Positions 2,613 through 64,000 of a stretch of DNA of 64,000 nucleotides are shown here, piece by piece. Position numbers and translations under genes: made by a program. The notes beneath the pieces were generated by a model. It made no database searches. It had not been told where the DNA came from and saw only the letters and a program-made list of their open reading frames with translations. The DNA is from an uncultured Staphylococcaceae bacterium (GTDB taxonomy: Bacteria > Bacillota_I > Bacilli_A > RFN20 > CAG-826), in assembly GCA_964639215.1 (NCBI GenBank), contig CAZXCV010000001.1, positions 35,168 to 99,167 on the forward strand, given 5' to 3'. Each line of letters starts with the position of its first letter. The first letter of the stretch is position 1.

Positions 2613-3403
2613 AGCTTATATTTTTTACGTTCGTCTTTAATGATTGCCTGTGTCCATTTATCAATGAGTGTCTGACTCACTAATTTTTTGTTTAACAATT
2701 CGGTGACGAGCAAATCACGATTATTGCTAAAGTACGCCGCAACGACAGGTAAGACCCGGTCAATGATACCTTCATAATCTGGGTTGGCTAAATGTCGGTC
2801 AAATAAAGCGATTTTAACATCAAGGCCGCCCTGGGCATTGATCAATAAGATATTGCGGAAATCAAGATGATAAAACGCCATCGAAGTTCGGTCACTCCCA
2901 AGTTTAATCAGCTTGGTGAAATATGAATCGAACAGCATGAAATTGTATGTTTCAAATGGATTAATCACTGATGCTGTGAAATCTTTTGTGAGCTTATCAT
3001 ACGGAAAATCAAATAGTTTGTCTGGTTCATTCGTATAAACAAAGTTCATCGCTCGATTAAAAATCGGGACATACATTTTTGTCTCATTATCGATTAAATA
3101 TGGTAAATCGAGGTGTTTGGCTAAGATGGCTTGACGAATGTCATGATGACGGATGCGCTGATGTTTAGCAAGTGAAGCCTGTCCAAGTTCCTGTAACTGC
3201 GCTTCAATCGCCAATTTATTTTGCAATGATTTAATTACGATGTTGGCTTTGATCAAAGAAAAGTCGTCTTCTAGACTATATAAGTCAAGAAAGCAGTTAT
3301 GGTCAATCAATAAATGTCGATTAGCAATGAAAAATGCATATTCGTCGCTATCGGACAATCGTTTATTTTTTTGCTCTTGTTTTAATAATTCAAATAGTCG
3401 CAT
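2609..3403 (-). CDS. hypothetical protein (about 265 aa) with no recognisable motif; ATGA stop/start overlap with mtaB
   Basis: The ORF at 2609..3421 uses a TTG in the track; the first ATG is at 3403 (MRLFELLKQEQ...). It sits where prmA lies in the Bacillus dnaJ-prmA-rsmE-mtaB cluster but has no SAM-binding GxGxG motif. Confidence 0.4.
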   Translation of the reverse strand: MRLFELLKQEQKNKRLSDSDEYAFFIANRHLLIDHNCFLDLYSLEDDFSLIKANIVIKSLQNKLAIEAQLQELGQASLAKHQRIRHHDIRQAILAKHLDLPYLIDNETKMYVPIFNRAMNFVYTNEPDKLFDFPYDKLTKDFTASVINPFETYNFMLFDSYFTKLIKLGSDRTSMAFYHLDFRNILLINAQGGLDVKIALFDRHLANPDYEGIIDRVLPVVAAYFSNNRDLLVTELLNKKLVSQTLIDKWTQAIIKDERKKYKL

Positions 3404-4100
3404 GTTCTTTGATATAACCAATCAATGCCATGGCGGCGATTGCTGCTGTTTCACTTCGTAAAATATGACGTCCTAGTGACACTGGTAGATATCCTGCCTT
3501 GATTGCCGTGTCGAGTTCGGTAGGCTCAAAGCCACCTTCTGGGCCAACTAAAATCGCTAGATCCTGATTTTGAGATATTGGAACATTTAATGGTGGTTTT
3601 CCTGCTTCGAGTTCCGAAGCGATGAGTTTGAGACCAAAGTCAAACGTAAACACTTCACTAAGCGATGGAGCAAATGATAACTCAGGCATGCGCGTACGAC
3701 GACTTTGTTCGGCTGCTTCTTTAATAATCGCTTCATATCGAGCCAATTTTCTCGATATGTCGGCATCTTGCCATTTAACGATTGAACGCTTTGTAATGGT
3801 TAAAATGATATGGTCAACACCAAGCTCGGTCGCTTTTTGTACGACAAAATCGAGTTTTTCACCTTTTGGCAAACTATAAATGAGCGTGAGACGATAATCA
3901 CGAGTCGCTGTTTCCAATTGTCGTTTAACCGCGATAATAAGCGGTTTCAGCATCGTGATTTCCGCTAAATATAACGAGCCGTGGTCGACGACTTCAATTT
4001 CGGTACCTTTACGCGCCCGAAGGACAACGAGTAAATGATGTTCGTCACTGCTCGATAAAAAGACATTTCCGCTACTGACGCGGGCAAAATAACGCGTCAT
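3390..4100 (-). CDS. rsmE: 16S rRNA (uracil1498-N3)-methyltransferase RsmE
   Basis: 236 aa, MTRYFA... with an N-terminal PUA-like region and a C-terminal SPOUT region (ILVGPEGGFEPTE). Synteny with dnaJ and mtaB supports the call. Confidence 0.75.
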   Translation of the reverse strand: MTRYFARVSSGNVFLSSSDEHHLLVVLRARKGTEIEVVDHGSLYLAEITMLKPLIIAVKRQLETATRDYRLTLIYSLPKGEKLDFVVQKATELGVDHIILTITKRSIVKWQDADISRKLARYEAIIKEAAEQSRRTRMPELSFAPSLSEVFTFDFGLKLIASELEAGKPPLNVPISQNQDLAILVGPEGGFEPTELDTAIKAGYLPVSLGRHILRSETAAIAAMALIGYIKEHATI

Positions 4101-16773: not shown

Positions 16774-17699
16774 AGATGACCGAGGTAGTGCCGATGGCCA
16801 TTGAGAAAATCATGTCCGATCGTTGGACGTTTACCCGGAATTTGTAATAAAGTTATCTCGATGTTTCCATCAATCAATTGAAGTAAAAGTTTTCCATTTT
16901 GTTCATGAACAGTTCCAATTTCGTTATCGATCGATGTGTTATATAACTTGGTTGCTAAAAGTTTGATTCGCTCATCATTACTTAAAACATAGCCACCTGG
17001 ACTAGGAGCTAATGCTCTGACATAATTTATAAAATCACGGCTTGATAAACCGATGTTTAAATGCTCTTGTTCTATTTTTATCGAGGGAGCAAAACTAACT
17101 TGTGCCACATCTTGAGGAATACCTTTTAACTCATCATTTAGATATTGTTTTAATAGTAAGGGCACAAATGTATTGATGGTCGCACTCATCCGATTTCGTA
17201 GTGTTTCATAGTTATCATCATCTAGAATTGTGACTGGAATTTGTGCATACATCGGTCCAGCGTCCATTTGCGTGACCATCTCCATCAGCGTAAATCCTGT
17301 TTCCTTGAAACCGTGCATCAAGGCATATTGTATCGGAGCCGCACCACGTAACCTTGGTAACAAACTGCCATGGACGTTTAGTGGACGATACTTCGGCCAT
17401 TTCAGTACGGCATCGGGAACGATTTGTCCATACGCCAAAGTGACGATGAGATCGGCATCGAGATGATTAATGAAATCATGATTAATACGGATTGACGTCG
17501 GCTGAAATATAGGAATATCGTATTTTTCTGCGATGATTTTTGTGGCAGCTTTCATGAGTAAATTACGGCGACCAAAAGAAGCATCAGGCTGGGCAATCAC
17601 AGCGACAATATTAAATTGACCATTAATCAATGTTTCAAGTAATGATGCGGCTATTTCCGGTGTGCCCATAAAGACAACTTTAGCGTGCTTATAATCCAT
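16764..17699 (-). CDS. fmt: methionyl-tRNA formyltransferase
   Basis: 311 aa with VVFMGTPEIAASLL and HGSLLPRLRGAAPIQ. Confidence 0.9.
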   Translation of the reverse strand: MDYKHAKVVFMGTPEIAASLLETLINGQFNIVAVIAQPDASFGRRNLLMKAATKIIAEKYDIPIFQPTSIRINHDFINHLDADLIVTLAYGQIVPDAVLKWPKYRPLNVHGSLLPRLRGAAPIQYALMHGFKETGFTLMEMVTQMDAGPMYAQIPVTILDDDNYETLRNRMSATINTFVPLLLKQYLNDELKGIPQDVAQVSFAPSIKIEQEHLNIGLSSRDFINYVRALAPSPGGYVLSNDERIKLLATKLYNTSIDNEIGTVHEQNGKLLLQLIDGNIEITLLQIPGKRPTIGHDFLNGHRHYLGHLWK

Positions 17700-17786: not shown

Positions 17787-18686
17787 ATGATTTATGAGAA
17801 ATTGACGGATTTAATTGGACACACTCCCGTTTTGCATTATCAAACGATAAATAATAGTGAACTTTATTTAAAACTCGAACAGTTTAATCCGGCTGGTTCT
17901 GTCAAAGATCGGATTGCCCTTTCGATGATTGAAGCTTTGGAGATAGAAGGAAAGTTAACAGACAAAACAACAGTGATTGAAGCCACATCGGGTAATACTG
18001 GGATTGGTTTAGCCTACGTATTAGCCGCTAAAGGGATACCATTAATTTTAACGATGCCAGCCTCGGCTTCAAAAGAACGGATTGATCTATTGAAAGCCTA
18101 TGGAGCGCACGTCATTCTGACACCCGCCGATAAATCAATGACTGGTGCAAAAGCTGTCGCTGCACAACTTAGTAAAGACCATGGTTATCTTTATCTTGAA
18201 CAATTTTCGAATCCCCATAATCCCGAAGCCCATATGAAAGGGACAGCCATCGAAATCATCGACGATTTTTCAAAACTCGACTTTGTTATTTGTGGTGTCG
18301 GAACTGGTGGTACGATTACTGGTTTAAGTCGGATTTTAAGAAATCATTATCGCACAATTAAATTTATCGCCGTCGAACCCGAGGAATCTGCCGTCCTTTC
18401 TGGTCAGGCGCCAGGATCTCATGGTATTTCTGGTATCGGTGCTGGATTTATTCCACCAATACTCGATAAGTCGCAAATCGATCAAATCATTACTATTAAG
18501 ACCGCAGCCGCTCAAGCAAAGGCGAAAGATTTAGCAATCAAGGGTCATTTTTATGGAATTTCTGCTTCTGCCGTTATTATAGCTGGCGAAGAGGTAGCAA
18601 GGGAACACCCCAATTCCATCATCTTAATCATCATTCCCGATGGAGGAATTAAATATATGTCAACCGGAGTGTACAATCATGAATAA
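17787..18686 (+). CDS. cysK: cysteine synthase A (O-acetylserine sulfhydrylase)
   Basis: 299 aa with a PLP-dependent fold ([25 protein letters not shown]). Confidence 0.9.
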
Positions 18687-19194
18687 CAAACCCGAATCTT
18701 TTTTCGCATCAATTAAACGACGCGATCCCGCTGCTCGTCATAATTTACAGATTTTGCTACTATATCCAGGTGTCGCTGCCCTCATCAATTACCGAATTTC
18801 TCACTTCTTTTGGCGTTTAAAACTCAAATTTATCGCTGAGTGGATTGCCAAAGTGTCGCGCCGACGCACAGGGATTGAAATTCATCCAGGAGCGACAATT
18901 GGAAAACGATTTTTCATCGATCATGGAATGGGTGTCGTGATCGGAGAAACAGCGGTGATCGGTGATGATGTTACGATGTACCATGGAGTAACACTAGGCA
19001 CCCGCCTTGGAGGACGTGGCAAGCGACATCCAACCATAGGAAATCGCGTGATGATAGGTGCCGAATCAATGATTTTAGGTAATATCAATGTCGGTGATGG
19101 GGCAAAAATCGGAGCCAACTCCACGGTTATTAAAGATGTCGCTCCCGGTGAAGTAATCATCACTTGTTCAAGACGTGATAATAAACCGGATTAA
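18679..19194 (+). CDS. cysE: serine O-acetyltransferase
   Basis: ATG at 18679 (MNNKPESFF), overlapping the cysK stop. It has left-handed beta-helix hexapeptide repeats ([31 protein letters not shown]). Confidence 0.85.
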
Positions 19195-19560: not shown

Positions 19561-19589
19561 GCCTAAATAAATATGATATGATTTTTAAT

Positions 19590-20708
19590 ATGAAAACACT
19601 AAAATCAAATCCACGTACTGATGGTTTTCGAATGCCCGCTGAATTCGAACCGCATCGTGGTACATTATTAACCTACCCGTATCGGACCGATGTGTGGCGC
19701 CTAGATGGAGTACCCGCTCAAGATAACTACATCGAAGTGGCAAGTGCTATCGCTAAGCATGAACCGGTGTTCATTGCCGTACCGCCACATCTGATGGTGG
19801 AAGCCGAGGCTCGTTATCAAATTCCGAATGTCACATTGATACCCTTAGAAAGTGATGACGCCTGGATGCGCGACAACGGTCCAACGTTTGTCATAAATGA
19901 CAACCAAGAATTACGTGGCATTGACTGGGTGTTCAATGCTTGGGGTGGCGATTATGACGGTCTTTATAAACCATGGGATACCGATGATGCAATGGCTGAG
20001 TCAATTCTGAAAATTTGGAATGTTGATCGCTATCGTACGCATAATTTTGTGCTTGAAGGCGGCTCGATTCACGTTGATGGGCAAGGTTTAGCCTTAGTCA
20101 CCGAAACTTGCTTGCTATCTCCTGGTCGCAATCCACATATGAGTAAACGTCAAATTAGCGAAATGCTCAAGAAATACTTGAATGTCAAAAAAGTCATTTG
20201 GTTACCATTTGGTGTTTATAACGACAATACGAACGGTCACATCGATAACATTGCATGTTTTGTGGCTCCAGGCCATGTTTTAATCGCGCTGTTCGATGAC
20301 AAAAATGATCCGCAGTATGCAATGTCACAAGCCTCACTCAAAGCATTGGAAAAAGCACGTGGTATCGATGGCAAACCATTAAAAATCTCTAAGATGATTT
20401 TCCCGACGAAACTCGTGTACTCAAGCGAAGAAGAAAGCGGTACTGTCGACGAGGATGAAAATGCCATTGCGCGACCTGCCCATAAGCGGCTTGTCGCTAG
20501 CTATATAAATTTTTACATTTGTAATGGCGCCATCATCATGCCAGCCTTCAATATGCCATCAGACCAACAAGCGCAAGCGATATTGGCAAATCTCTTTCCG
20601 GACCGTGAAATTATTCCGATATACTCGAGGGAAATTCTCTTGGGTGGTGGTAACATTCACTGTATAACGCAACAAATTCCACAAGGGAAAACGAATGATG
20701 AACGTTAA
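19590..20708 (+). CDS. aguA: agmatine deiminase
   Basis: Porphyromonas-type peptidylarginine-deiminase fold ending in GGGNIHCITQQ with the catalytic Cys. It overlaps aguB. Confidence 0.85.
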   Translation: MKTLKSNPRTDGFRMPAEFEPHRGTLLTYPYRTDVWRLDGVPAQDNYIEVASAIAKHEPVFIAVPPHLMVEAEARYQIPNVTLIPLESDDAWMRDNGPTFVINDNQELRGIDWVFNAWGGDYDGLYKPWDTDDAMAESILKIWNVDRYRTHNFVLEGGSIHVDGQGLALVTETCLLSPGRNPHMSKRQISEMLKKYLNVKKVIWLPFGVYNDNTNGHIDNIACFVAPGHVLIALFDDKNDPQYAMSQASLKALEKARGIDGKPLKISKMIFPTKLVYSSEEESGTVDEDENAIARPAHKRLVASYINFYICNGAIIMPAFNMPSDQQAQAILANLFPDREIIPIYSREILLGGGNIHCITQQIPQGKTNDER

Positions 20709-21549
20709 AGTAGCCGCAATCCAAATGGCAATGAGTTGGGATCAACAAAATAATCTAGCGACGGCTGATAAACTAGTTCGCGCCGCCGCTAAAGATGGTG
20801 CCAACATTATTTTATTACCAGAATTATTCATGACACCTTATTTCCCCCAACTGGAAAAATATGAATATTTTGAGTTAGCCACATCCATCGAGCACAATCC
20901 TGCTATCAATCATTTTAAACAAGTCGCTAAAGAGTTACACATCGTCTTACCAATTTCATATTTTGAAGTCGAAAACAATGTTTTTTATAATTCACTCGTC
21001 GTGATTGATGCCGATGGTAAGAACCTCGGGAATTATCGAAAAACTCACATTCCGACGGGTACAAGTTATGAGGAAAAGTTTTACTTCACGCCTGGTGATA
21101 CGGGCTTCAAGGTGTTTAAAACAATATTTGGAACGATCGGAATTGGCATTTGCTGGGATCAATGGTTCCCAGAAACCGCTCGCATTCTCGCGTTACAAGG
21201 CGCAGAGCTCATCTTCTATCCGACAGCGATTGGGAGTGAACCGACTTTACCAATTGATAGCCGCGACCATTGGCAAAACGCGATGAAAGGTCATGCCGCT
21301 AGTAACCTAATTCCTGTGATAGCGGCAAATCGCATTGGAGTCGAAACCGACGAGACATCGACGATGACTTTTTATGGCTCTTCCTTTATTTGTGACGAGA
21401 CAGGAGCAATTATTGCGAGTATGGACCGTACGACAACAGGTCATATTGCAGCAACCTTTGATTTAACTCGCATCAAAAAATACCGCTATAGCTGGGGCAT
21501 ATTTCGGGACCGACGTCCGAGCATGTATCATCCAATCTTAAAGAAATAA
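20695..21549 (+). CDS. aguB: N-carbamoylputrescine amidase (nitrilase superfamily)
   Basis: 284 aa with VKVAAIQMAMSWD, LPELF and GIGICWDQWFPE, giving the CN-hydrolase Glu/Lys/Cys triad. Confidence 0.85.
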   Translation: MMNVKVAAIQMAMSWDQQNNLATADKLVRAAAKDGANIILLPELFMTPYFPQLEKYEYFELATSIEHNPAINHFKQVAKELHIVLPISYFEVENNVFYNSLVVIDADGKNLGNYRKTHIPTGTSYEEKFYFTPGDTGFKVFKTIFGTIGIGICWDQWFPETARILALQGAELIFYPTAIGSEPTLPIDSRDHWQNAMKGHAASNLIPVIAANRIGVETDETSTMTFYGSSFICDETGAIIASMDRTTTGHIAATFDLTRIKKYRYSWGIFRDRRPSMYHPILKK

Positions 21550-25680: not shown

Positions 25681-25710
25681 TTGTCATCTTCGTGGCAATT
25701 GTGTTATATT
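25681..25710 (+). promoter_or_regulatory. candidate sigma-A promoter for chrA
   Basis: TTGTCA, a 17 nt spacer, then TATATT with a TG two bases upstream. Confidence 0.35.
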
Positions 25711-25722
25711 CTATTACGACTT

Positions 25723-26316
25723 ATGAAACAACAAGCATCGCTCTTTAAATTAATGTGGTCATTTCTAAAAATTGGATTGTTCACCTTTGGCGGTGGCTAT
25801 GCAATGATTCCATTGATGCAGCGTATTGTCGTTGAAGAACAAAGATGGTTGACCTATGACGAAATGCTTGAAATCATCGTGATTGCCGAATCAACCCCGG
25901 GTCCCATATCTTTAAACATTGCGACATTTGTCGGTTATCGTCAACGGAAGTTGCTGGGTGCGATTGTAAGTTCGATTGGGCTTGCGATTCCTTCGTTATT
26001 AATTATCACGACCATTGCATTCTTTTTTGATGATTTTAAGAACAATCACATCATTAGTGGCGCTTTATCTGGCATTAAGACGGCCATCGTGATTTTGGTG
26101 TTTGGAGCGTTAATAAAGCTTATTAAAATGCTCCCACACGACAAGAAAACGCTGATAATCATTGGATTATTAACTGCACTGATGTTTACGCTTGATTTAT
26201 TACAAATTCCAGTATCTGGCATTTTCTTCATATTAGGAGCCGGCATTATTGGTTTATTGCTCCATGGTCTAACTAACTATCACAAGAAACGAGAAAATAA
26301 CGATGATTTACCTTGA
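25723..26316 (+). CDS. chrA: chromate transporter ChrA, N-terminal-type half (short-chain CHR pair)
   Basis: FGGGYAMIPLMQ signature. ATG at 25723. Confidence 0.75.
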   Translation: MKQQASLFKLMWSFLKIGLFTFGGGYAMIPLMQRIVVEEQRWLTYDEMLEIIVIAESTPGPISLNIATFVGYRQRKLLGAIVSSIGLAIPSLLIITTIAFFFDDFKNNHIISGALSGIKTAIVILVFGALIKLIKMLPHDKKTLIIIGLLTALMFTLDLLQIPVSGIFFILGAGIIGLLLHGLTNYHKKRENNDDLP

Positions 26317-26875
26317 ATTGTTTCTCGTGTTTTTCTCGATTGGTCTCTTCACTTTTGGTGGTGGTTACGCGATGGTGCCAATTCTCAAAGTCGAAGTGCT
26401 CGAGCGCGGATGGATGAATCAACAACTATTTATCGATTTCATCAGCATCTCTGAGTCAACTCCCGGTCCACTCGCATTAAACATGGCAACGTTTATTGGA
26501 ACAGAGACTGGTGGTATTGCCGGAGCGCTTGTCGCATCATTTGCGATGATGCTCCCTTCAATCATCATCATTACACTCATTGCCGCACTTTTTCACAAAA
26601 CATTGAAACACCCGTTATTTCAAGCGGCTTTAGCAATGATTAAACCTGTAATTATCGCCTTGATTGGGACGACAATTTTGTTTCTACTTAAAAATTTATT
26701 ATTTCCGCTTGATGTAACTAATAATCATGCGACGTTTGATGTTCGGCACTTCAGTTTATTAATAAATTTAGCAACGCTATATTTTGGATCTCAAGCGATA
26801 AGAAAAAGGCCACTTCATCCAATGTTATTAATTGGCGTCGCAGCCTGCTTTGGGATTTTGATTTTTAGCTTTTAA
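26303..26875 (+). CDS. chrA: chromate transporter ChrA, C-terminal-type half
   Basis: FGGGYAMVPIL signature. It overlaps the first half by 14 nt. Confidence 0.75.
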   Translation: MIYLELFLVFFSIGLFTFGGGYAMVPILKVEVLERGWMNQQLFIDFISISESTPGPLALNMATFIGTETGGIAGALVASFAMMLPSIIIITLIAALFHKTLKHPLFQAALAMIKPVIIALIGTTILFLLKNLLFPLDVTNNHATFDVRHFSLLINLATLYFGSQAIRKRPLHPMLLIGVAACFGILIFSF

Positions 26876-30427: not shown

Positions 30428-31570
30428 TTATTTATTGATTAATCGACCTTGATAATACACGGCTTTGATTAGTCCGCCACCTAAACATTGCCCGTCTTGG
30501 TAAATGACAGCCCCTTGTCCCGGTGTGATTGCTTTGAGAGGCGCAGGTAGTTTTACTGCTAATTCATCGTCATTAATCATATCAATCACAATCGGATGTT
30601 TCATTTGTCGATAACGAAATTTTGCGGTATATTCTGTATCGACGATTGGAGGTTTGTTGATCCAATTGAGGTGATCAATCACAACATAATCTCCATATAA
30701 ATAGTCATCTTCTGATTCCGAAGTCACGTAGAGAATATTTTGTTTGACATCTTTCGAGACCACAAACCAACTCCCGGCTGGTTTTGTGGCAATACCGCCG
30801 ATACCCAAACCGCGGCGCTGACCAATCGTATAATAAAAAACACCGTCATGCGTTCCAATTTGATCTGAAGTTTTAATATCGATAATCGGTCCCGGTTTCG
30901 CTGGTAGATAATTTTTTAAAAATTGGCGGAAATGGCGCTCACCAATAAAACAAACTCCGGTTGAATCTTTCTTATTCGCTACATCAAGGCCAAGCTTCTT
31001 TGCGATTGAACGTACTTCGGTTTTTTTAAGCGCGCCAAGTGGAAATAAAGTCGCAGCAAGTTGCGCTTGGTTAATTTGTGAGAGAAAATATGTTTGATCC
31101 TTATCAGCGTCTTCGCTTTCAAGCATGACATAATTGCCATCTTTCGAGACTTTTTTCGCATAATGTCCCATTGCGATATAATCACATCCATGTTGCTTGG
31201 CAAATTGTAGAAAAGCGGCGAACTTGATGTATTTGTTACAAAAAATATCAGGATTTGGGGTGCGACCGTGTTCGTATTCTGTTAAGAAATACGTGAAGAC
31301 ATCGTTCCAGTACTCCTTAACAAAATCGATGCGGTATAGCGGAATATCTAGCGCTTGAGCAATCGCTTTAGCGTCATTATAATCAACTTCCTGCGGGCAC
31401 AAATCTTGGGCTAAGGTTGGATTACCTAAAACGTCATTGTTCGCGAGGGCATCCCAATTGCGCATAAATCCAGCAATGACTTCGTAACCTTGTTGCTTTA
31501 ATAAATAAGCCGCGACGGCTGAGTCGACACCACCACTAAGTCCAACCATCACCTTCGTGTTAGTGTTCAT
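30428..31570 (-). CDS. mnmA: tRNA-specific 2-thiouridylase MnmA
   Basis: ATG 31570 with an AAGGAA RBS. MNTNTKVMVGLSGGVDSAVAAYLL carries the PP-loop SGGxDS. Confidence 0.9.
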   Translation of the reverse strand: MNTNTKVMVGLSGGVDSAVAAYLLKQQGYEVIAGFMRNWDALANNDVLGNPTLAQDLCPQEVDYNDAKAIAQALDIPLYRIDFVKEYWNDVFTYFLTEYEHGRTPNPDIFCNKYIKFAAFLQFAKQHGCDYIAMGHYAKKVSKDGNYVMLESEDADKDQTYFLSQINQAQLAATLFPLGALKKTEVRSIAKKLGLDVANKKDSTGVCFIGERHFRQFLKNYLPAKPGPIIDIKTSDQIGTHDGVFYYTIGQRRGLGIGGIATKPAGSWFVVSKDVKQNILYVTSESEDDYLYGDYVVIDHLNWINKPPIVDTEYTAKFRYRQMKHPIVIDMINDDELAVKLPAPLKAITPGQGAVIYQDGQCLGGGLIKAVYYQGRLINK

Positions 31571-32015
31571 AAAGTTCCTTAGAATCAAGGATGATTGTGA
31601 AAGGACCAGCATTTTTTAGGGTCACCGTCATACTCGCGCCAAAAATACCACATGATATGCGTGAATAATGTTGATTCAATTTCAAAATGAACCGTTCAAA
31701 TAATGTGTTAGCAATTTGCGGTGGTGCGGCCATTGTAAACGATGGACGGCGACCACCATTTAATGAGCCGTAAAGTGTAAAATTTGGGATGATTAAAATA
31801 TCAGCAAATAAATCAGGTACCGATAGATTAGTCTTCCCATTAATGTCTGGTAATAATCGCATCACTAAAATTTTGGCAACCATTTTATCGATGATGTCAT
31901 CATTATCGTCATGCGTGAATCCGACAAATAAGGCAAGTCCAAATCCCGATTTAGCAATAATTTCGCCGTTAACCGTAATCGTTCCTTCATGAATTGTTTG
32001 ACTGATAATTCTCAT
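31560..32015 (-). CDS. dtd: D-aminoacyl-tRNA deacylase
   Basis: 151 aa, MRIISQ...PNFTLYG..., Dtd-like fold. Its stop overlaps the mnmA start by 11 nt. Confidence 0.8.
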   Translation of the reverse strand: MRIISQTIHEGTITVNGEIIAKSGFGLALFVGFTHDDNDDIIDKMVAKILVMRLLPDINGKTNLSVPDLFADILIIPNFTLYGSLNGGRRPSFTMAAPPQIANTLFERFILKLNQHYSRISCGIFGASMTVTLKNAGPFTIILDSKELYEH

Positions 32016-52726: not shown

Positions 52727-53578
52727 TTAAAATAGTCCTCTTTCGCTATAATAAAGCCCCGATTGTTGCCGCTTGTAAACCGCTAACACTTCATGTGCTG
52801 GACTGATGACAAGCACCGTTTCTTCGGGATGGCTGAATAGTTGTGGTTTCCCATCTTTGATGTCTTTGACAATATCTTCCTTGACAACGATTTGGGGCAT
52901 AAACGCTAACCCTTCGTAGACTGAGCGCACGGCCTGTGGTGCCAAGTTGTCTAAGGTGACGGCATCCTCAACCACAAATGGTCCGACTTTCAACCGTCGT
53001 AATTCACTGAGGTGGCCGACCATCCCAAGTTTTTTGGCGATGTCTTCACCAAGCGTACGCATGTATGTTCCTTTAGATACGGTCGCCTTAAACGTAATCT
53101 CATCGCTTGTTAAGGTGATAAGAGCGATGTCATAAACGTGAATATGTCGTGGTTCTCGTTCAAGCGTCTCCCCTTTATGAGCGTATTTATATAAAGGAAC
53201 ACCAGCAACTTTTAAGGCCGAATGCATCGGAGGAGTTTGTAAGCTATCACCAAGAAACATCGATAACGTTTCGCTAACATAATAGTCAAACAGGGGATAT
53301 ATTTCTGAAGTAGTCGTGATCTTACCCGTCAAATCGCCACTATCTGTTTGTGATCCTAACTTAATTGTCGCCACGTAAGTTTTTTCTAACGCCTCTAAAT
53401 ATGGTCCAGCTTTGGTACCTTTGCCGAGCGTTACGACAAGGAGACCAGTGGCAAACGGGTCAAGACTACCAGTATGGCCAATCTTTTTCATATCAAAGCG
53501 TTTTGTTAAGGTATCGACGACGTCGCGCGAGGTAATTCCACGCGGTTTATCAATTAATATAAAACCATCCATTATCAT
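52727..53578 (-). CDS. truB: tRNA pseudouridine(55) synthase
   Basis: ILIDKPRGITSRDVV...GHTGSLDPFATGLL. The start is at 53578 or 53572. Confidence 0.9.
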   Translation of the reverse strand: MIMDGFILIDKPRGITSRDVVDTLTKRFDMKKIGHTGSLDPFATGLLVVTLGKGTKAGPYLEALEKTYVATIKLGSQTDSGDLTGKITTTSEIYPLFDYYVSETLSMFLGDSLQTPPMHSALKVAGVPLYKYAHKGETLEREPRHIHVYDIALITLTSDEITFKATVSKGTYMRTLGEDIAKKLGMVGHLSELRRLKVGPFVVEDAVTLDNLAPQAVRSVYEGLAFMPQIVVKEDIVKDIKDGKPQLFSHPEETVLVISPAHEVLAVYKRQQSGLYYSERGLF

Positions 53579-53632
53579 TGTTCCCCGTTTCGTGTATATT
53601 ATAATAGTTTTAACTATAAATAACATTTAATT

Positions 53633-54823
53633 ATGAAAGCAATTCGCACAATCCTCGCCACATTAAGAAATGGCGACCAACAATACAATCTGATGACCGC
53701 TCACGATAAAATCGTCATCGGTGTTTCTGGTGGTAAAGATTCGTTATTACTCGTTTATGCCCTAAACCTCTACCGTAAATTTGCCCATAAGCTATTCACA
53801 ATCCAGCCGGTGATGCTTGACCTCGGTTTTCCAAACTTTGATGCATCGATGACAAAAGCGTATATCGAAAGTCTTGGCTTGACTTTACTCGTTGTTCCAA
53901 GTCGCGATGTCTATCCGATTTTGAAAGCGCAACAAAAAGATTTAGCCCATCTACCATGTTCAATTTGCTCACGTATGAAGAAAGCCGCCATCAATAAAGT
54001 CGCGCAGACACTAGGCTACAATAAAGTGGCCTTCGCCCATCATGCTGATGATGCGATTGAAACATTATTAATGAACCAAATATTTGGGGGAAGATTAGCG
54101 ACGTTCGCTCCAAAAATGCACCTCGAACGTGCTGATATTACATTCATACGGCCGTTTATTCACGTGCGCGAATCAGATATCATTCGAGCGGTTAAGGAGC
54201 TTCAAATACCCGTCTTACCAAGTCCGTGTCCCTCCGATGGAGAAACAACACGCGAAGACATTAAGACATTGCTGCAAGATATTTACCAGCGCTATCCAAC
54301 CGCGAAAACAAATTTTTTAACAATGCTCGCTAATTATGAACAGGCTGACTTGTGGTTTGATGAAATTAACTATCAGATTGAGGGAACGTCACTCGTGATG
54401 CGTCCCGTCCATCGTGCGATTGATGGGATGACAGCTGCTTACATTCGTCAAGTTGTTTTTGTCATGGGTCAAAATGTTCCCGTTGACCTAGAATTCGACG
54501 GTACTGATGATAAGGCACATGGTTTTTTGCTTTTAAAAGATAATGTTCCAATCGGAACAATTCGCTATTTGATTGATGGTCCGCATGACTTTCATATTGG
54601 TCGCGTAGCTATTTTGGAAGCATATCGTAACCATGGTTATGGTTCCGTTATGATGAAGTTTCTCCATCAATATCTTTACGACCGATATAATCCTTTAACG
54701 ATTACGATTCATGCACAAGCGCATCTTAAAGCTTTCTATGAACGCTTCGGTTATCAGGTCAAAGGTGAACAATTTATGGAAGCTGGAATTGCTCATTACA
54801 AAATGGTGGCTACGTTAAAATAA
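53633..54823 (+). CDS. TtcA-like PP-loop ATPase (tRNA 2-thiocytidine synthase family) fused to a C-terminal GNAT acetyltransferase domain
   Basis: N-terminal SGGKDS PP-loop, CSICSR Fe-S Cys pair, and further Cys at PCP. The C-terminal 140 aa carry GNAT motif A (RVAILEAYRNHGYGSVMM). Confidence 0.6.
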   Translation: MKAIRTILATLRNGDQQYNLMTAHDKIVIGVSGGKDSLLLVYALNLYRKFAHKLFTIQPVMLDLGFPNFDASMTKAYIESLGLTLLVVPSRDVYPILKAQQKDLAHLPCSICSRMKKAAINKVAQTLGYNKVAFAHHADDAIETLLMNQIFGGRLATFAPKMHLERADITFIRPFIHVRESDIIRAVKELQIPVLPSPCPSDGETTREDIKTLLQDIYQRYPTAKTNFLTMLANYEQADLWFDEINYQIEGTSLVMRPVHRAIDGMTAAYIRQVVFVMGQNVPVDLEFDGTDDKAHGFLLLKDNVPIGTIRYLIDGPHDFHIGRVAILEAYRNHGYGSVMMKFLHQYLYDRYNPLTITIHAQAHLKAFYERFGYQVKGEQFMEAGIAHYKMVATLK

Positions 54824-54850
54824 AAATAGTAGCGAGTGCTACTATTTCTT
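54824..54850. terminator. hairpin between the convergent TtcA-GNAT gene and rbfA
   Basis: AATAGTAGC-gagt-GCTACTATT, a 9-bp stem. Confidence 0.5.
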
Positions 54851-55192
54851 GTTCAACCAATCTTTTTCACGAGCAAGCGCTGCTTCAACACGAGCCGCTT
54901 TTTCATGTGAGTCATCATAGACAAAGACGATGTCTGGTACTTTATAAATATCAAGGCGTTTTGCTAATTCACTGCGAATAAACCCTTTGCTTCTTGCGAG
55001 CTCTTCCATTCTGGTTTCTTTATTCGTGGCATCAATGAAGCTGACATAAATGCGGGCAAAAGCATGGTCTTGACTGACTTTACCACTCGTGATCGTGACG
55101 AAGCCAAGTTTCGGATTCTTAAGTTCGAATTGAATGATTTCGGTGATGTAGCGCACGATTAAGGCGCTAACGCGATTTTTTCGATGATTCAT
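54842..55192 (-). CDS. rbfA: ribosome-binding factor A
   Basis: 116 aa, KH-like. Confidence 0.9.
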   Translation of the reverse strand: MNHRKNRVSALIVRYITEIIQFELKNPKLGFVTITSGKVSQDHAFARIYVSFIDATNKETRMEELARSKGFIRSELAKRLDIYKVPDIVFVYDDSHEKAARVEAALAREKDWLNKK

Positions 55193-61719: not shown

Positions 61720-62409
61720 CTATTCCTCTTCTTCGTAATAATAAGAATAGTCAATTCCTTTTAGGAATAATTCCCTATTATCAATCTCATCAGTTAGTGC
61801 GAATTTTAATAAATCATGAATTTTTAAGGAACTAACAGGACTTTCTCTCATCGCGTTTAAATAATCGTTTTTATCAATATTTGACCAATCAACGCATTTG
61901 CCTATCCTATTAATGAATAATAAATCTAACCATATTCTAGTTGCTCTGCCACTCCCTTCCATAAAAGGATGCGAAATATTCATTTCGACATATTTATTCA
62001 CTATTTTGTCAAATGTTGAATCAGGCATCTTATCTATATCTTTCAAAATTTGTGGTAGGAAATCACCATTAGCAAAAACGACTCCGCCTTTTGAAATAGT
62101 TTTGGTGCGGATTCTCCCCGCGAAAGGGTATAAACCTTCAAATAGATAACCATGAATTTTTAGCAAAGCAATTGTTTTACTAATTTCATTATTTTCAATC
62201 AAAGAAGTTTGATAAAAATCATAAGCTTTCTTTTTGCTTTGTTCATCAATAGAATCAAGCATTCCTTGAATCCAATATCGAATTTGCTTTTTATACTTTG
62301 AAGGAATAATCGTTAATAGTAATCTGACACCATTCTCATTAATAACATCTGAAAGATATTTTTTTCCATCATTGGAATATAGTTTCTGTTGTCCACAAAA
62401 TTGGGACAA
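61720..62409 (-). CDS. fic: Fic-family protein (Fido, COG2184-like); intact active-site motif
   Basis: ISHPFMEGSGRATRIWLDLLF matches HPFx(D/E)GNGRxxR, and the core aligns with E. coli Fic (HPFRVGSGLAQRIFFEQL). The N-terminal TSLIEN resembles the class-II inhibitory helix motif (S/T)xxxE(G/N). The gene is AT-rich. Confidence 0.8.
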   Translation of the reverse strand: MSQFCGQQKLYSNDGKKYLSDVINENGVRLLLTIIPSKYKKQIRYWIQGMLDSIDEQSKKKAYDFYQTSLIENNEISKTIALLKIHGYLFEGLYPFAGRIRTKTISKGGVVFANGDFLPQILKDIDKMPDSTFDKIVNKYVEMNISHPFMEGSGRATRIWLDLLFINRIGKCVDWSNIDKNDYLNAMRESPVSSLKIHDLLKFALTDEIDNRELFLKGIDYSYYYEEEE

Positions 62410-62472: not shown

Positions 62473-62546
62473 TGGTGCCTCCTGCCAGAATCGAACTAGC
62501 AACTAATCCTTACCATGGATTTGTTATACCACTTAACTAAGGAGGC
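62473..62546 (-). tRNA. tRNA-Thr (anticodon GGU), CCA encoded
   Basis: A manual cloverleaf fold works. The acceptor stem is GCCTCCT/AGGAGGC, the D arm GTTA-AGTGGTA-TAAC, and the anticodon arm AATCC-AT GGT AA-GGATT. The T arm is GCTAG-TTCGATT-CTGGC, with an A discriminator and CCA. Confidence 0.85.
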
Positions 62547-62642: not shown

Positions 62643-64000
62643 CTAATTAAATGTTTTATCGGCCGTGATATTAAAAGCGCCACTAGTATAATCAACGACG
62701 TATTGACGCGTCGTATCGATTTCTCCCGCTATAATCGCACGAGCTAATAACGTTTCGATTTCTCGCTGGATGAATCGCTTAATTGGGCGTGCCCCATATT
62801 CAAATGAATAAGCGGTATCAATGATATACTGCTTAACGTTACTTGTAAAAACAACGCTGATATATTGCTCTTCAAGCCGTCTCATTAATTCGCCAAGCAT
62901 CTTATCGACAATTCGGAGTTGCACATCACGTCTCAAAGGTTCGAAGTAAACTATTTCATCAATCCGATTTAAGAATTCTGGTCTGAATGTATGATGGAGC
63001 ATGTCGTCAACTTTGTCCCGCTCATTGTTAAGGAGAAATTCACTACCAAGATTGCTAGTCATAATGATGATGGTATTACGAAAATCAACAATCCGTCCTT
63101 GCGAATCAGTCAATCGCCCATCATCAATTACTTGAAGCAATAAATTAAATACTTCTGGATGTGCCTTTTCGATTTCGTCAAATAAAACAATGCTATAAGG
63201 GGCACGTCGGACTTTTTCCGTTAATTGACCACCTTCCTCATAACCAACATAACCAGGGGGCGCTCCGATTAATCTCGACACAGAAAACTTTTCCATATAT
63301 TCACTCATATCAATCCTGATAATATTGGCTTCATTATCAAATAACGCTTCTGCCAATGATCGGGCGACTTCGGTTTTTCCTACTCCAGTTGGGCCTAAAA
63401 ACATGAATGATCCGATTGGACGTCTCTCATCTTTAATGCCCGCTCTTTGGCGAATAATCGCATCAGCGACAAGACTAATAGCTGTGTCTTGCCCAATAAC
63501 TCGTTTCATCAATGTGTCTTTTAATGCGAGAACTTTTTCTTTATCGCCTTTCATAATCTTTGAAATGGGAATGTGTGTGTTTTTAGAAATAATCACAGCA
63601 ATTTCTTTTTCAGTGACAATTTCTGAAAGTAACTTTGCATGTGGGACTTTTTCTTCAAGTTGTTTCAACTTTTTCTCAAGTAAAGGAATATCTTGATATT
63701 GAAGTTTACTCGCAATTTGGTATTGGCCCCGATTAAACGCGGCATCAAGTTCAAACCGCGCTCGGTCTAAATCTTTTTTCAGTGACTTGATATCATTAAT
63801 AACTTGTTTCTCATCTTGCCAACGTGTTTTTAATTTTGTCTGAGCTTGAATAAGATGACGTAATTCATCATTAACTTTTTCAAGTCGTGTTTGACTACTA
63901 GCATCTTTTTCTTTAGTTAAAGCAACTTTCTCGATTTCAAGTTGCCGAATTTTTCGATCAAGCTCATCAAGTTCTGAGGGTAATGATTCGATTTGGACAC
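62643..64000 (-). CDS. clpB: Clp ATPase ClpB-like chaperone; partial (N-terminal half lies beyond the window end)
   Basis: NBD2 with GPTGVGKTE Walker A and the sensor region. The upstream frame continues through a coiled-coil middle domain to position 64000 without a stop. Confidence 0.8.
   Translation of the reverse strand, partial: VQIESLPSELDELDRKIRQLEIEKVALTKEKDASSQTRLEKVNDELRHLIQAQTKLKTRWQDEKQVINDIKSLKKDLDRARFELDAAFNRGQYQIASKLQYQDIPLLEKKLKQLEEKVPHAKLLSEIVTEKEIAVIISKNTHIPISKIMKGDKEKVLALKDTLMKRVIGQDTAISLVADAIIRQRAGIKDERRPIGSFMFLGPTGVGKTEVARSLAEALFDNEANIIRIDMSEYMEKFSVSRLIGAPPGYVGYEEGGQLTEKVRRAPYSIVLFDEIEKAHPEVFNLLLQVIDDGRLTDSQGRIVDFRNTIIIMTSNLGSEFLLNNERDKVDDMLHHTFRPEFLNRIDEIVYFEPLRRDVQLRIVDKMLGELMRRLEEQYISVVFTSNVKQYIIDTAYSFEYGARPIKRFIQREIETLLARAIIAGEIDTTRQYVVDYTSGAFNITADKTFN

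What the first reader, a model, noticed from the sequence alone, without database searches (positions are those of the whole stretch)
53633..54823. Unusual fusion of a TtcA-type PP-loop ATPase with a GNAT acetyltransferase
The N-terminal 250 aa carry the SGGKDS PP-loop and the CSICSR Cys pair characteristic of the Fe-S tRNA 2-thiocytidine synthase TtcA. The C-terminal 140 aa carry a clear GNAT motif A (RVAILEAYRNHGYGSVMM). Stand-alone TtcA proteins are about 300 aa without an acetyltransferase. Combining an adenylating tRNA-base-modifying module with an acyl-CoA transferase in one chain suggests a possibly uncharacterised RNA modification activity. It is encoded beside truB, ribF and rbfA.
Basis: partly seen in the sequence, partly recalled or inferred. 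Interest (0 to 1): 0.5.

Follow-up and report, generated by a model that had tools for sequence, protein, structure and literature searches.

The report
TtcA-like tRNA thiolase fused to GNAT
This is a real single gene that joins an iron-sulfur tRNA-thiolating enzyme module to an orphan ElaA-type acetyltransferase domain; it is conserved at one fixed spot in a clade of uncultured gut and rumen Bacilli, but the acetyltransferase half looks like an optional accessory rather than part of a new RNA chemistry.

Summary
Window 53633-54823 (+) is one uninterrupted 396-aa ORF. Residues ~1-240 are a TtcA-family PP-loop module with SGGKDS and the three Fe-S cysteines C109, C112 and C199. Residues ~255-396 are an ElaA/YjcF/SACOL1063-type GNAT with a canonical R-x-x-G-x-G loop.

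The fusion is not a one-off. The orthologue lies on the opposite strand between truB and rbfA in all 80 related species-level genomes retrieved, all uncultured Bacilli. All 80 keep the thiolase motifs, but only 57 keep a recognisable GNAT. The other 23 carry a shrunken, more basic relic that has lost every GNAT signature yet is still under purifying selection. Sister lineages have the thiolase alone, one contig has the GNAT alone, and one lineage carries a different GNAT.

My best reading is a tRNA 2-thiolase, probably making s2C32, with a lineage-specific accessory GNAT domain. That domain's lasting role is probably auxiliary (docking, stabilising or regulatory), and its acyl-transfer target is unknown. 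A coupled new RNA modification is not excluded but is unlikely. I found no paper describing this architecture. Interest is moderate.

The parts
53633..54823 (+). Whole fusion ORF, 396 aa plus stop codon
   Evidence: Single uninterrupted frame. An identical protein P0001 is in public assemblies.
53633..54352 (+). TtcA-family PP-loop ATP-pyrophosphatase / [4Fe-4S] thiolase module (aa 1-240)
   Evidence: PF01171 E 2.9e-14. NCBIfam TtcA NF007972 E 2.1e-51 over aa 11-241, but 174.9 bits is below the 272 cut-off. 30% identity to E. coli TtcA over 218 aa, E 2e-35. Foldseek matches TtuA and NcsA at TMt ~0.66.
53726..53743 (+). PP-loop SGGKDS (aa 32-37), the ATP alpha/beta-phosphate binding loop
   Evidence: Invariant in all 80 orthologues.
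53957..53968 (+). C109-S-I-C112, the first two predicted [4Fe-4S] ligands
   Evidence: Invariant in 80 of 80. They align with E. coli TtcA Cys122 and Cys125, which are essential per PMC4081106.
54227..54229 (+). C199, the third predicted [4Fe-4S] ligand
   Evidence: Invariant in 80 of 80. It aligns with the second Cys of the E. coli C-N-L-C motif and with the TtuA and NcsA ligand Cys.
54338..54394 (+). Inter-domain linker (aa ~236-254)
   Evidence: pLDDT is below 50 at aa 236-243 in the AlphaFold2 model. The sequence is variable in alignment A1.
54395..54820 (+). ElaA/YjcF/SACOL1063-type GNAT domain (aa 255-396)
   Evidence: PF13673, PF00583 and PF13508 hits. phmmer against PDB: YjcF 1q2y 4.5e-15, SACOL1063 1e-13, 3efa, ElaA and PA0115. 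Foldseek to 5jph: TMt 0.91, rmsd 1.5 A. dN/dS is 0.04-0.17 in close pairs.
54626..54643 (+). GNAT motif A loop R332-N-H-G335-Y-G337, the acyl-CoA pyrophosphate-binding loop
   Evidence: Read directly from the sequence. R332 is kept in 96% and G335 in 89% of the intact-GNAT orthologues, and the loop is deleted in the relics.
54467..54469 (+). G279, where the ElaA-type signature 'VFxxEQ' normally has Glu
   Evidence: All solved homologues have Glu here. The position toggles between E (29) and G (18) in alignment A3, and the window and its nearest relatives have G.
53573..53632 (.). 60-bp divergent intergenic region shared with truB. It holds a promoter-like TTATCA-17-TATATT (53572-53600, +) and no obvious Shine-Dalgarno sequence before the ATG.
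   Evidence: The truB gene call ends at 53572 (mapped from L001). The promoter scan found no more sites than chance. The sequence was read.
54819..54853 (.). Stable hairpin at the convergent 3' ends of the fusion gene and rbfA, likely a bidirectional terminator
   Evidence: RNA fold of -12.7 kcal/mol, z = -4.68, with 0 of 200 shuffles folding as well. It is followed by UUUCUUGUU.
52727..53572 (-). truB (tRNA pseudouridine-55 synthase), divergently transcribed neighbour
   Evidence: TruB_N and TruB_C_2. The divergent pairing with the thiolase gene is present in nearly all 80 loci (ribF is adjacent instead in a few) and also in Erysipelotrichaceae with the stand-alone gene.
54842..55192 (-). rbfA, convergent downstream neighbour
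   Evidence: PF02033 E 2e-28. Conserved synteny.

Best explanation
The gene encodes a two-module protein. The N-terminal module (aa ~1-240) is a TtcA-family enzyme. It binds ATP at the SGGKDS PP-loop, holds a [4Fe-4S] cluster on C109, C112 and C199 with one free iron site that carries a hydrosulfide, adenylates the C2 carbonyl of a tRNA pyrimidine, and replaces it with sulfur. The most likely reaction is cytidine-32 to 2-thiocytidine. This module is the constant, selected function of the locus. The C-terminal module (aa ~255-396) is an ElaA/YjcF/SACOL1063-type GNAT, tethered by a flexible linker and acquired once at the base of this clade of uncultured Bacilli. In this window it most likely still binds an acyl-CoA. 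Its lasting contribution is probably auxiliary to the thiolase, for example docking the tRNA or a partner, stabilising the enzyme, or reporting acyl-CoA status. It is probably not a second chemical step needed for thiolation. The target of any acyl transfer is unknown.

Shown here: the architecture, the motifs, the folds, the conservation, the synteny, and the pattern of gain, decay and loss. Inferred: Fe-S binding, tRNA as substrate, position C32, acyl-CoA binding, and the auxiliary role.
For: Thiolase module:
- NCBIfam TtcA E 2.1e-51, against TilS_N 1.3e-18, TtuA 1.1e-16 and NcsA 2.1e-09.
- 30% identity to E. coli TtcA, E 2e-35, with all three cysteines aligned to the residues shown to be essential.
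- TtuA/NcsA fold.
- SGGKDS, CSICS.MKKA, HH..DA.ET, FIRP and C199 are invariant in 80 of 80 orthologues, and dN/dS is 0.02-0.09.
- NCBI names the nearest stand-alone relatives TtcA or TtcA family.
- A canonical MnmA in the same window already covers s2U34.

GNAT is real:
- Pfam, PDB and fold matches.
- A coherent conserved residue set in the 57 intact orthologues: R272, E287, R311, Y312, R324, R332, G335, Y369 and H388.
- dN/dS 0.04-0.17.

GNAT is an accessory, not obligatory:
- 23 of 80 syntenic orthologues have lost every GNAT signature while the thiolase stays intact.
- Stand-alone thiolase genes occupy the same slot in sister lineages.
- The linker has pLDDT below 50.

The C-domain still matters to the protein:
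- The relics are under purifying selection, dN/dS 0.07-0.23.
- The relics are more basic, net +6 against +0.9.
- A relic orthologue models confidently with no disordered linker, pLDDT 90, pTM 0.76.
- A different GNAT is fused to a stand-alone-clade thiolase, P0155.

Precedent: in E. coli MadA/YiiD a SACOL1063-like GNAT is fused to an enzyme whose activity does not need it (PMC8666670).
Against: - No biochemical data exist for any member.
- The TtcA equivalog score (174.9) is below the curated cut-off (272), and the protein lacks the N- and C-terminal extensions of E. coli TtcA, so C32 specificity is an extrapolation.
- I could not examine the organism's Arg and Ser tRNAs.
- The auxiliary-role argument rests on evolutionary pattern only.
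- The one contig with the GNAT alone in the same slot (L087) shows the GNAT can be kept without the thiolase. That fits an independent enzymatic role at least as well as an auxiliary one.
- No PAE or interface data were available to show that the domains touch.
- The NJ tree used to count events has no support values.
- The dN/dS values are simple Nei-Gojobori estimates on AT-rich genes.
Confidence: 0.5

Rival explanations
1. Two independent enzymes that happen to be fused. The thiolase modifies tRNA, and the GNAT acetylates an unrelated small molecule such as a free amino acid, or a protein. The fusion gives only co-expression.
For: The linker is low-confidence and the whole-chain pTM is 0.63. 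The domains separate in evolution in both directions: thiolase alone and GNAT alone in the same slot. The nearest structural relative, SACOL1063, and its homologue Hpa2Ab acetylate free Thr and other amino acids in vitro (PMC10267138). MadA is a precedent.
Against: If the GNAT were an unrelated enzyme, losing its activity should lead to deletion of the domain in these compact genomes. Instead a 80-125-aa relic persists under purifying selection in at least two lineages. A second, different GNAT is fused to the same thiolase family in P0155. The fusion has been stable across at least 57 species, down to ~43% identity.
Confidence: 0.3
2. Coupled chemistry producing a new modified nucleoside. The PP-loop module activates or thiolates a cytidine, and the GNAT acylates the same or a neighbouring base, giving for example an N4-acetyl-2-thiocytidine.
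For: Both modules have intact catalytic-looking motifs in 49-57 of 80 species. GNAT domains do acetylate tRNA cytidine in TmcA/NAT10-type enzymes (established knowledge). The gene lies in a tRNA and ribosome-biogenesis neighbourhood. E. coli elaA is divergently paired with the tRNA-processing gene rbn, a weak lead.
Against: The GNAT is lost or decayed in 23 of 80 orthologues with no change in the thiolase motifs. The GNAT subtype is ElaA-like, not TmcA/NAT10-like, and there is no helicase or tRNA-binding DUF. The signature Glu is replaced by Gly in this window. No known ElaA-type GNAT acts on RNA. The literature search found nothing on such a nucleoside or enzyme.
Confidence: 0.07
3. The N-module is not a C32 thiolase. 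It targets another tRNA position or base, or a non-tRNA substrate such as a free nucleotide or a cofactor precursor.
For: It scores below the TtcA equivalog cut-off. The short ~245-aa form lacks the E. coli TtcA termini. More distant relatives of this module are fused to TudS 2-thiouracil desulfidase and to a PLP-enzyme domain, which hints at wider thio-nucleobase metabolism.
Against: TtcA is by far the best-scoring characterised family. The conserved divergent pairing with truB and the placement in the nusA-infB-rbfA cluster fit a tRNA role. MnmA is present for U34.
Confidence: 0.15
4. Artefact or mis-call: two adjacent genes merged by a sequencing frameshift, or the N-half is really TilS (as JGI labels some homologues).
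For: JGI annotates some members 'TilS/MesJ / predicted GNAT'.
Against: The same continuous ORF is found in more than 120 independent 90%-identity clusters and in 57 species genomes. Both halves are under purifying selection. The TilS_N model scores 67.6, below its 93.6 cut-off and far below TtcA. There are no TilS C-terminal domains. The Fe-S Cys triad is a thiolase feature.
Confidence: 0.02

Closest known systems
E. coli TtcA (tRNA cytosine(32) 2-sulfurtransferase, b1344)
   Same: PP-loop SGGKDS; the C-x-x-C pair plus a third Cys that align with the essential [4Fe-4S] ligands; 30% identity over 218 aa. It is the best-scoring curated family.
   Different: The score is below the equivalog cut-off. 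The protein lacks the ~30-aa N-terminal and ~55-aa C-terminal extensions of E. coli TtcA. It has a single Cys where E. coli has C-N-L-C. It carries a 140-aa GNAT instead.
TtuA / NcsA ([4Fe-4S] tRNA U54 and U34 2-thiolases; PDB 5ztb, 3vrh, 5mkp, 6scy)
   Same: Closest solved folds for the N-module (TMt ~0.66, E ~1e-14). Same three-Cys cluster site and PP-loop.
   Different: No N- or C-terminal zinc-finger CxxC motifs. Only ~22% identity. Much weaker NCBIfam scores than TtcA.
ElaA / YjcF / SACOL1063 / PA0115 small GNATs (PDB 5z6n, 1q2y, 5jph, 1xeb, 3efa)
   Same: The C-module aligns end to end (E 1e-8 to 5e-15). TM 0.91 and rmsd 1.5 A to CoA-bound SACOL1063. Shared signatures R..VF, AQ.HL..FY..(F/L)G(F/Y) and E.GI.H..M.
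   Different: Those are stand-alone ~140-150-aa proteins of unknown physiological function. The window has Gly where they all have the 'EQ' Glu. The NCBIfam ElaA-type model PRK10314 scores 39 against a cut-off of 171.
E. coli MadA/YiiD (SACOL1063-like GNAT fused to a malonyl-ACP decarboxylase)
   Same: An orphan GNAT of the same structural subtype is fused to an enzyme. The domains fold independently. The GNAT is dispensable for the partner's activity and absent from most orthologues (PMC8666670).
   Different: The partner domain, the domain order (GNAT at the N-terminus) and the phylum are all different. This is an analogy of organisation, not homology of the whole protein.
TmcA / NAT10-type tRNA cytidine N4-acetyltransferases
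   Same: They are a conceptual precedent for a GNAT domain acting on tRNA cytidine when joined to an ATP-using module (established knowledge).
   Different: Their GNAT subfamily is unrelated, and they have helicase and tRNA-binding domains that were not detected here. There is no evidence that this protein acetylates RNA.

Membership tests
TtcA family ([4Fe-4S] tRNA 2-thiocytidine synthase) | PP-loop motif SGGxDS | tested here: met
   SGGKDS at aa 32-37, invariant in 80 of 80 orthologues.
TtcA family ([4Fe-4S] tRNA 2-thiocytidine synthase) | Three essential Cys ligands of the cluster (Cys122, Cys125 and Cys222 in the numbering of PMC4081106) | tested here: met
   C109, C112 and C199 align with the E. 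coli C-S-L-C pair and with the second Cys of C-N-L-C. By my count of NP_415860.1 that residue is number 213. The paper's numbers for the last cysteines appear offset, so this correspondence is by position in the motif.
TtcA family ([4Fe-4S] tRNA 2-thiocytidine synthase) | Curated equivalog score (NCBIfam NF007972, cut-off 272 bits) | tested here: not met
   174.9 bits, E 2.1e-51, covering model positions 28-257 of 295. It is a family-level relative, not a certified equivalog.
TtcA family ([4Fe-4S] tRNA 2-thiocytidine synthase) | Forms s2C at position 32 of tRNA in an ATP- and Fe-S-dependent reaction | not testable with these tools
   This needs complementation or in vitro assay. A C32 check on Arg and Ser tRNAs was attempted, but only tRNA-Thr(GGU) genes lie in the DNA held.
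GNAT superfamily | Profile match above curated thresholds, and the GNAT fold | tested here: met
   PF13673 54.9 bits (cut-off 23.6), PF00583 45.0 (20.7) and PF13508 42.5 (27). Foldseek to 5jph gives TMt 0.91.
GNAT superfamily | Motif A Q/R-x-x-G-x-G/A, the acyl-CoA pyrophosphate-binding loop | tested here: met
   R332-N-H-G335-Y-G337. The motif is present in 49-57 of 80 orthologues and deleted in 23.
GNAT superfamily | Binds acyl-CoA and transfers the acyl group to an acceptor | not testable with these tools
ElaA/YjcF (COG2153-type) GNAT subfamily | Conserved N-terminal signature R-x-x-V-F-x-x-E-Q | tested here: not met
   The window has R272..V275 F276..G279 Q280. All five solved homologues aligned residue by residue have Glu at that position. 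The position toggles between E and G within the fused family.
ElaA/YjcF (COG2153-type) GNAT subfamily | Curated NCBIfam model PRK10314 (NF007644, cut-off 171 bits) | tested here: not met
   39.2 bits, E 6e-10. It resembles the subfamily but is not a certified member.
TilS (tRNA-Ile lysidine synthetase) | TilS N-domain model cut-off, plus the TilS C-terminal substrate-binding domains | tested here: not met
   TIGR02432 scores 67.6, below its 93.6 cut-off, and PRK10660 scores 14.8 against 606. No TilS C-domains were detected by Pfam.
TmcA / NAT10 tRNA ac4C synthases | RNA-helicase-type ATPase module plus a TmcA-type GNAT and a tRNA-binding domain | tested here: not met
   No such Pfam or NCBIfam hits were found.
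GNAT toxins of toxin-antitoxin pairs (TacT/AtaT type) | A small GNAT with an adjacent antitoxin gene in a mobile or variable context | tested here: not met
   The gene has a fixed housekeeping position between truB and rbfA in 80 species with no small partner ORF. The best matches are ElaA-type GNATs, not toxin GNATs. Fmt is present in the window.

The most novel reading that the evidence does not exclude
The fused ElaA-type GNAT acts on the same tRNA as the thiolase. It would acylate the thiolated cytidine, a neighbouring base or the aminoacyl moiety, or gate thiolation by acyl-CoA level. That would give the large orphan ElaA/YjcF GNAT family, which includes E. coli ElaA sitting divergently beside the tRNA-processing gene rbn, its first physiological link to tRNA, and possibly reveal a new modified nucleoside.
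Probability: 0.1. Interest if true: 0.75.

Novelty: new variant of a known kind. Interest (0 to 1): 0.4.

Why it matters
TtcA-type thiolases and ElaA-type GNATs are both known families. No ElaA-type GNAT has an established physiological substrate, and the short TtcA-like proteins of Bacillota are untested. A fusion stable across dozens of species is a natural clue that could tie the orphan GNAT family to tRNA biology.

The natural series found here also provides ready-made comparison constructs for an experiment. The series comprises the intact GNAT, a constrained non-catalytic relic, the thiolase alone, the GNAT alone, and an independent second GNAT fusion.

If the GNAT proves irrelevant to thiolation, the case is still a clean example of how an accessory enzyme domain is recruited and then repurposed or stripped down in reduced genomes.

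Tried and rejected
- **C32 test.** I tried to check whether the organism's Arg and Ser tRNAs carry C32. Only tRNA-Thr(GGU) genes lie in the window and in the 50 related loci scanned, so the test could not be done.
- **afdb50 fold search.** I wanted to see how UniProt/AFDB describes the architecture, but the library was unavailable.
- **Literature.** Searches for TtcA + GNAT + PP-loop, for TtcA-like or acetyltransferase-domain fusions, and for ElaA/YjcF/SACOL1063/PA0115 found no description of this architecture or of a physiological ElaA function. An Aravind-group paper that mentions both GNAT and PP-loop concerns unrelated systems.
- **Conserved partner gene.** I looked for one in the 1-4.5-kb insertions between the fusion gene and rbfA in some loci. 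Their content is heterogeneous (ABC transporters, lipoproteins, HTH proteins and others) and was rejected as a functional context.
- **Relic fold.** Foldseek on the relic model was meant to show a residual GNAT fold, but no GNAT appears in the top 50 hits. The 'stripped-down GNAT' description therefore rests only on descent (synteny and tree) and on the order of secondary-structure elements.
- **Internal start at M256.** I considered separate GNAT expression from M256, which has GAGGGA 12 nt upstream. That Met is not conserved (Lys in most orthologues), so I dropped the idea.
- **N-acetylation replacing formylation of initiator tRNA.** Fmt is encoded in the window, so I dropped this.
- **Promoter scan.** It gave no more sites than chance.
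Full report
**Observation.** Window 53633-54823 (+) is one uninterrupted 396-aa ORF. Pfam places a PP-loop ATP-pyrophosphatase domain at aa 26-194 (PF01171, E 2.9e-14). It places three overlapping GNAT models at aa 291-394 (PF13673 E 1.2e-14, PF00583 E 1.6e-11, PF13508 E 8.6e-11), all above their curated cut-offs. A third cysteine, C199, completes a three-Cys set. On the minus strand the order is rimP-nusA-ylxR-(L7Ae-like)-infB-rbfA, then this gene on the plus strand, then truB-ribF-rpsO-(M20 peptidase)-pnp on the minus strand. So the gene is an opposite-strand insert inside a classic translation-factor cluster. It diverges from truB across about 60 bp and converges on rbfA. A stable hairpin sits at the shared 3' ends (-12.7 kcal/mol, z = -4.7).

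**What the two halves are.**
- The N-half scores best against the curated TtcA model: NF007972, E 2.1e-51, 174.9 bits over aa 11-241. It scores far weaker against TilS_N (67.6 bits), TtuA (60.9) and NcsA (36.9). The TtcA score is below the equivalog cut-off of 272 bits, so it is a family relative and not a certified TtcA.
- Against E. coli K-12 TtcA it shows 30% identity over 218 aa (E 2e-35). C109 and C112 align with Cys122 and Cys125. C199 aligns with the second Cys of the C-N-L-C motif. Bouvier et al. showed that three cysteines, named Cys122, Cys125 and Cys222 in their numbering, are essential for s2C32 formation and ligate a [4Fe-4S] cluster with one free coordination site for the transferred sulfide (PMC4081106).
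- An AlphaFold2 model has mean pLDDT 84.3 and pTM 0.63. Its N-half superposes on the [4Fe-4S] thiolases TtuA and NcsA (TMt ~0.66, E ~1e-14).
- Its C-half superposes on S. aureus SACOL1063 with CoA bound (5jph, TMt 0.91, rmsd 1.5 A). It also matches B. subtilis YjcF, L. plantarum 3efa, E. coli ElaA and P. aeruginosa PA0115.
- The GNAT is therefore of the ElaA/YjcF type, a widespread family with no established physiological substrate. SACOL1063 and its homologue Hpa2Ab only weakly acetylate free Thr and a few other amino acids in vitro (PMC10267138).
- The linker (aa 236-243) has pLDDT below 50, so the model does not fix the relative orientation of the halves.

**How common the fusion is.**
- The word-indexed search found 3207 relatives, and the 120 best hits all have the PP-loop + GNAT architecture. 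Nearly all are 394-401 aa and share 55-77% identity. NCBI names some 'GNAT family N-acetyltransferase [Bacilli bacterium]', and JGI names some 'TilS/MesJ / predicted GNAT' or 'TtcA'.
- A scan of one genome per GTDB species returned 80 loci. Nearly all come from uncultured Bacilli MAGs from rumen, gut and digesters. Their labels include Bacilli, Bacillales, Erysipelotrichaceae, 'Coprobacillus sp. CAG:826', 'Candidatus Onthovivens' and uncultured Mollicutes or Staphylococcaceae. A few bins carry other names, probably through mis-binning.
- Wherever the flanks are present in those 80 loci, the orthologue lies on the strand opposite to its neighbours, next to truB (or ribF), with rbfA downstream.
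- The fusion is therefore a stable, lineage-wide gene and not an oddity of this window.

**A natural series of states at one locus.** I extracted and aligned the 80 syntenic orthologues (alignment A2).
- *Thiolase constant.* All 80 keep SGGKDS, L-P-C-S-I-C-S-[RK]-M-K-K-A, H-H-x-x-D-A-x-E-T, F-I-R-P and C199.
- *GNAT intact in most.* 57 of 80 still match GNAT profiles, and 49 of 80 match a strict R/Q-x-x-G-x-G/A/S pattern.
- *GNAT decayed in the rest.* The other 23 carry an 80-125-aa C-terminal extension. The alpha1-alpha2 'EQ...E' segment and the CoA loop are deleted, and R311, Y312, R324, R332, G335, Y369 and H388 are all lost.
- *Thiolase alone.* The exhaustive representative search shows ~245-253-aa stand-alone relatives at up to 54% identity. 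One of them (P0130) lies beside rbfA. Those from Erysipelotrichaceae (Anaerorhabdus; OH741_COT-311) are named TtcA or TtcA family by NCBI. They sit divergently from truB-ribF and are followed by a radical-SAM/SPASM gene. The truB | ttcA-like pairing therefore predates the GNAT.
- *GNAT alone.* One metagenomic contig (L087) has only a 163-aa GNAT between truB and rbfA. It is 48% identical to aa 247-395, its R-S-K-G-Y-G loop is intact, and there is no PP-loop module. This is a single observation.
- *A second, different GNAT.* P0155 groups with the stand-alone Erysipelotrichaceae clade. Its GNAT shares only the generic motif A/B region with the window's (E 0.006).
- *Order of events.* A rough NJ tree of the N-module, without support values, places intact-GNAT forms basally and paraphyletically in the fused clade. 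Relics are nested at two or more places, and the complete-loss form is nested among them. The simplest history is one gain, repeated decay or loss, and one independent gain elsewhere.

**Selection.** I computed Nei-Gojobori dN/dS on pairs whose dS is not saturated.

| Clade | Example loci | N-half dN/dS | C-half dN/dS |
|---|---|---|---|
| Intact GNAT | L006/7/10/12/13, L018/20, L008/16/23, L031/32 | 0.02-0.07 | 0.04-0.17 |
| Relic | L055/58/60/62/63, L057/66, L052/67 | 0.02-0.09 | 0.07-0.23 |

The GNAT is under clear constraint, though looser than the thiolase. The relics are also constrained, so they are not decaying junk. They are more basic (mean net charge +6.0 against +0.9). A relic-bearing orthologue (P0124) gives a confident model with no disordered linker: pLDDT 90.3, pTM 0.76. 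Its C-domain keeps a beta-alpha-beta3-alpha-beta-alpha-beta order, although Foldseek no longer lists GNATs among its top 50 matches. In the window and its nearest relatives, the signature Glu of the ElaA-type 'VFxxEQ' motif is Gly (G279). All solved homologues have Glu there, and within the fused family the position toggles between E and G only.

**Interpretation.**
- The constant element is the TtcA-like thiolase. It is most likely a [4Fe-4S]- and ATP-dependent tRNA 2-thiolase, and by closest family it makes s2C32. A canonical MnmA elsewhere in the window (30428-31612) already covers s2U34. A MiaB/MtaB-type methylthiotransferase (1320-2612) shows that the organism runs other Fe-S-dependent tRNA sulfur chemistry.
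- The GNAT is an accessory acquired in this clade. Thiolase motifs are untouched where the GNAT decays, so acyl transfer cannot be an obligatory step of the thiolation reaction.
- A non-catalytic remnant is nevertheless retained under selection, and a second kind of GNAT was fused independently. That suggests the C-domain does something for the thiolase that does not need acyl-CoA chemistry, such as docking, stabilisation or oligomerisation. Any acyl-CoA binding or transfer in the intact forms would be an added, lineage-specific layer.
- The main rival is that the GNAT is simply an independent enzyme fused for co-expression. The flexible linker, the lone-GNAT contig and the MadA/YiiD precedent favour that reading. 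In MadA/YiiD a SACOL1063-like GNAT is fused to a decarboxylase that works without it (PMC8666670).
- Artefact and TilS readings are effectively refuted.

**Novelty and value.** Both domains belong to known families, and the protein is already in public databases under generic names. I found no paper describing a TtcA-GNAT architecture or a physiological role for ElaA-type GNATs. The case is best filed as a new domain-architecture variant of a TtcA-family thiolase. Its main value is as a lead for the orphan ElaA/YjcF GNAT family, and for the natural series of intact, relic and absent domains, which is ready-made for experiment. E. coli elaA is itself divergently paired with the tRNA-processing gene rbn, which is a weak, single-genome hint. 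Interest is moderate.

Noticed in passing
P0184 (391 aa) and P0197 (415 aa); Clostridia MAGs: More distant relatives of the TtcA-like PP-loop module (33-35% identity) are fused at the C-terminus to a TudS/DUF523 2-thiouracil desulfidase domain (PF04463, E 1e-35 to 1e-43). That puts a thiolase and a desulfidase in one chain. NCBI labels one simply 'DUF523 domain-containing protein'. The TudS paper I checked does not mention this fusion.
   Followed up: partly
P0167 (653 aa): A TtcA-like PP-loop module is fused to a fold-type-I PLP enzyme domain (Orn/Lys/Arg decarboxylase family, with weak Aminotran_5 similarity). This could be a built-in sulfur donor or an unrelated fusion.
   Followed up: no
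L087:938-1429 (JGI metagenome 3300077148, 1.9-kb contig): A stand-alone 163-aa ElaA-type GNAT with intact motif A occupies the truB | rbfA slot with no PP-loop module. It is the reciprocal of the GNAT-loss lineages. It is a single contig and was not verified independently.
   Followed up: partly
L083:5796-6638 and L085:5749-6582 (Erysipelotrichaceae genomes): Where the TtcA-like gene is stand-alone, it is immediately followed on the same strand by a ~280-aa radical-SAM/SPASM protein gene. This may be a functional partner, and it is absent from the fused-gene loci.
   Followed up: no
L089:3847-5028 (P0155): A second kind of GNAT (Acetyltransf_1-like, not alignable to the ElaA-type one beyond motif A/B) is fused to a TtcA-like module that groups with the stand-alone Erysipelotrichaceae clade. 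This looks like an independent TtcA-GNAT fusion.
   Followed up: partly
window 53573-53632: The fusion gene's ATG has no recognisable Shine-Dalgarno sequence (upstream ...ctataaataacatttaatt). The long truB ORF listed to 53626 almost certainly starts further in, at 53578 or 53572, where a GGGGA precedes ATGATAATGG. That leaves only about 54-60 bp for two divergent promoters.
   Followed up: partly
window 1320-2612 (-), 30428-31612 (-), 31560-32015 (-), 16764-17699 (-), 3390-4100 (-): Other tRNA, rRNA and translation genes lie in the window. They are a MiaB/MtaB/RimO-type radical-SAM methylthiotransferase, MnmA (U34 2-thiolase), Dtd (D-aminoacyl-tRNA deacylase; its ORF overlaps the listed mnmA ORF start), Fmt and RsmE.
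   Followed up: no
window 17787-19194 (+) and 19578-21549 (+): cysK-like (PALP) and cysE-like (hexapeptide) ORFs overlap by ~45 nt and form a cysteine-synthesis pair. Next to them is an agmatine deiminase + N-carbamoylputrescine amidase pair (the putrescine pathway).
   Followed up: no
window 61720-62409 (-), 62473-62546 (-), 62643-63668 (-): A Fic/DOC-family protein gene lies next to tRNA-Thr(GGU). Beyond it, a 341-aa ORF matches only the C-terminal AAA_2 / D2-small part of ClpB/ClpC-type ATPases. It is either a truncated gene or a mis-set start.
   Followed up: no
window 25681-26875 (+): Two adjacent, slightly overlapping half-size chromate-transporter (ChrA-type) ORFs of 211 and 190 aa, the split two-gene form of the transporter.
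   Followed up: no
L091 (E. coli K-12 2381082-2382525): E. coli elaA, the founding member of the GNAT subtype, is divergently transcribed from rbn (RNase BN, tRNA 3' processing) across a 64-bp gap. This is a weak hint that ElaA-type GNATs have some link to tRNA.
   Followed up: partly
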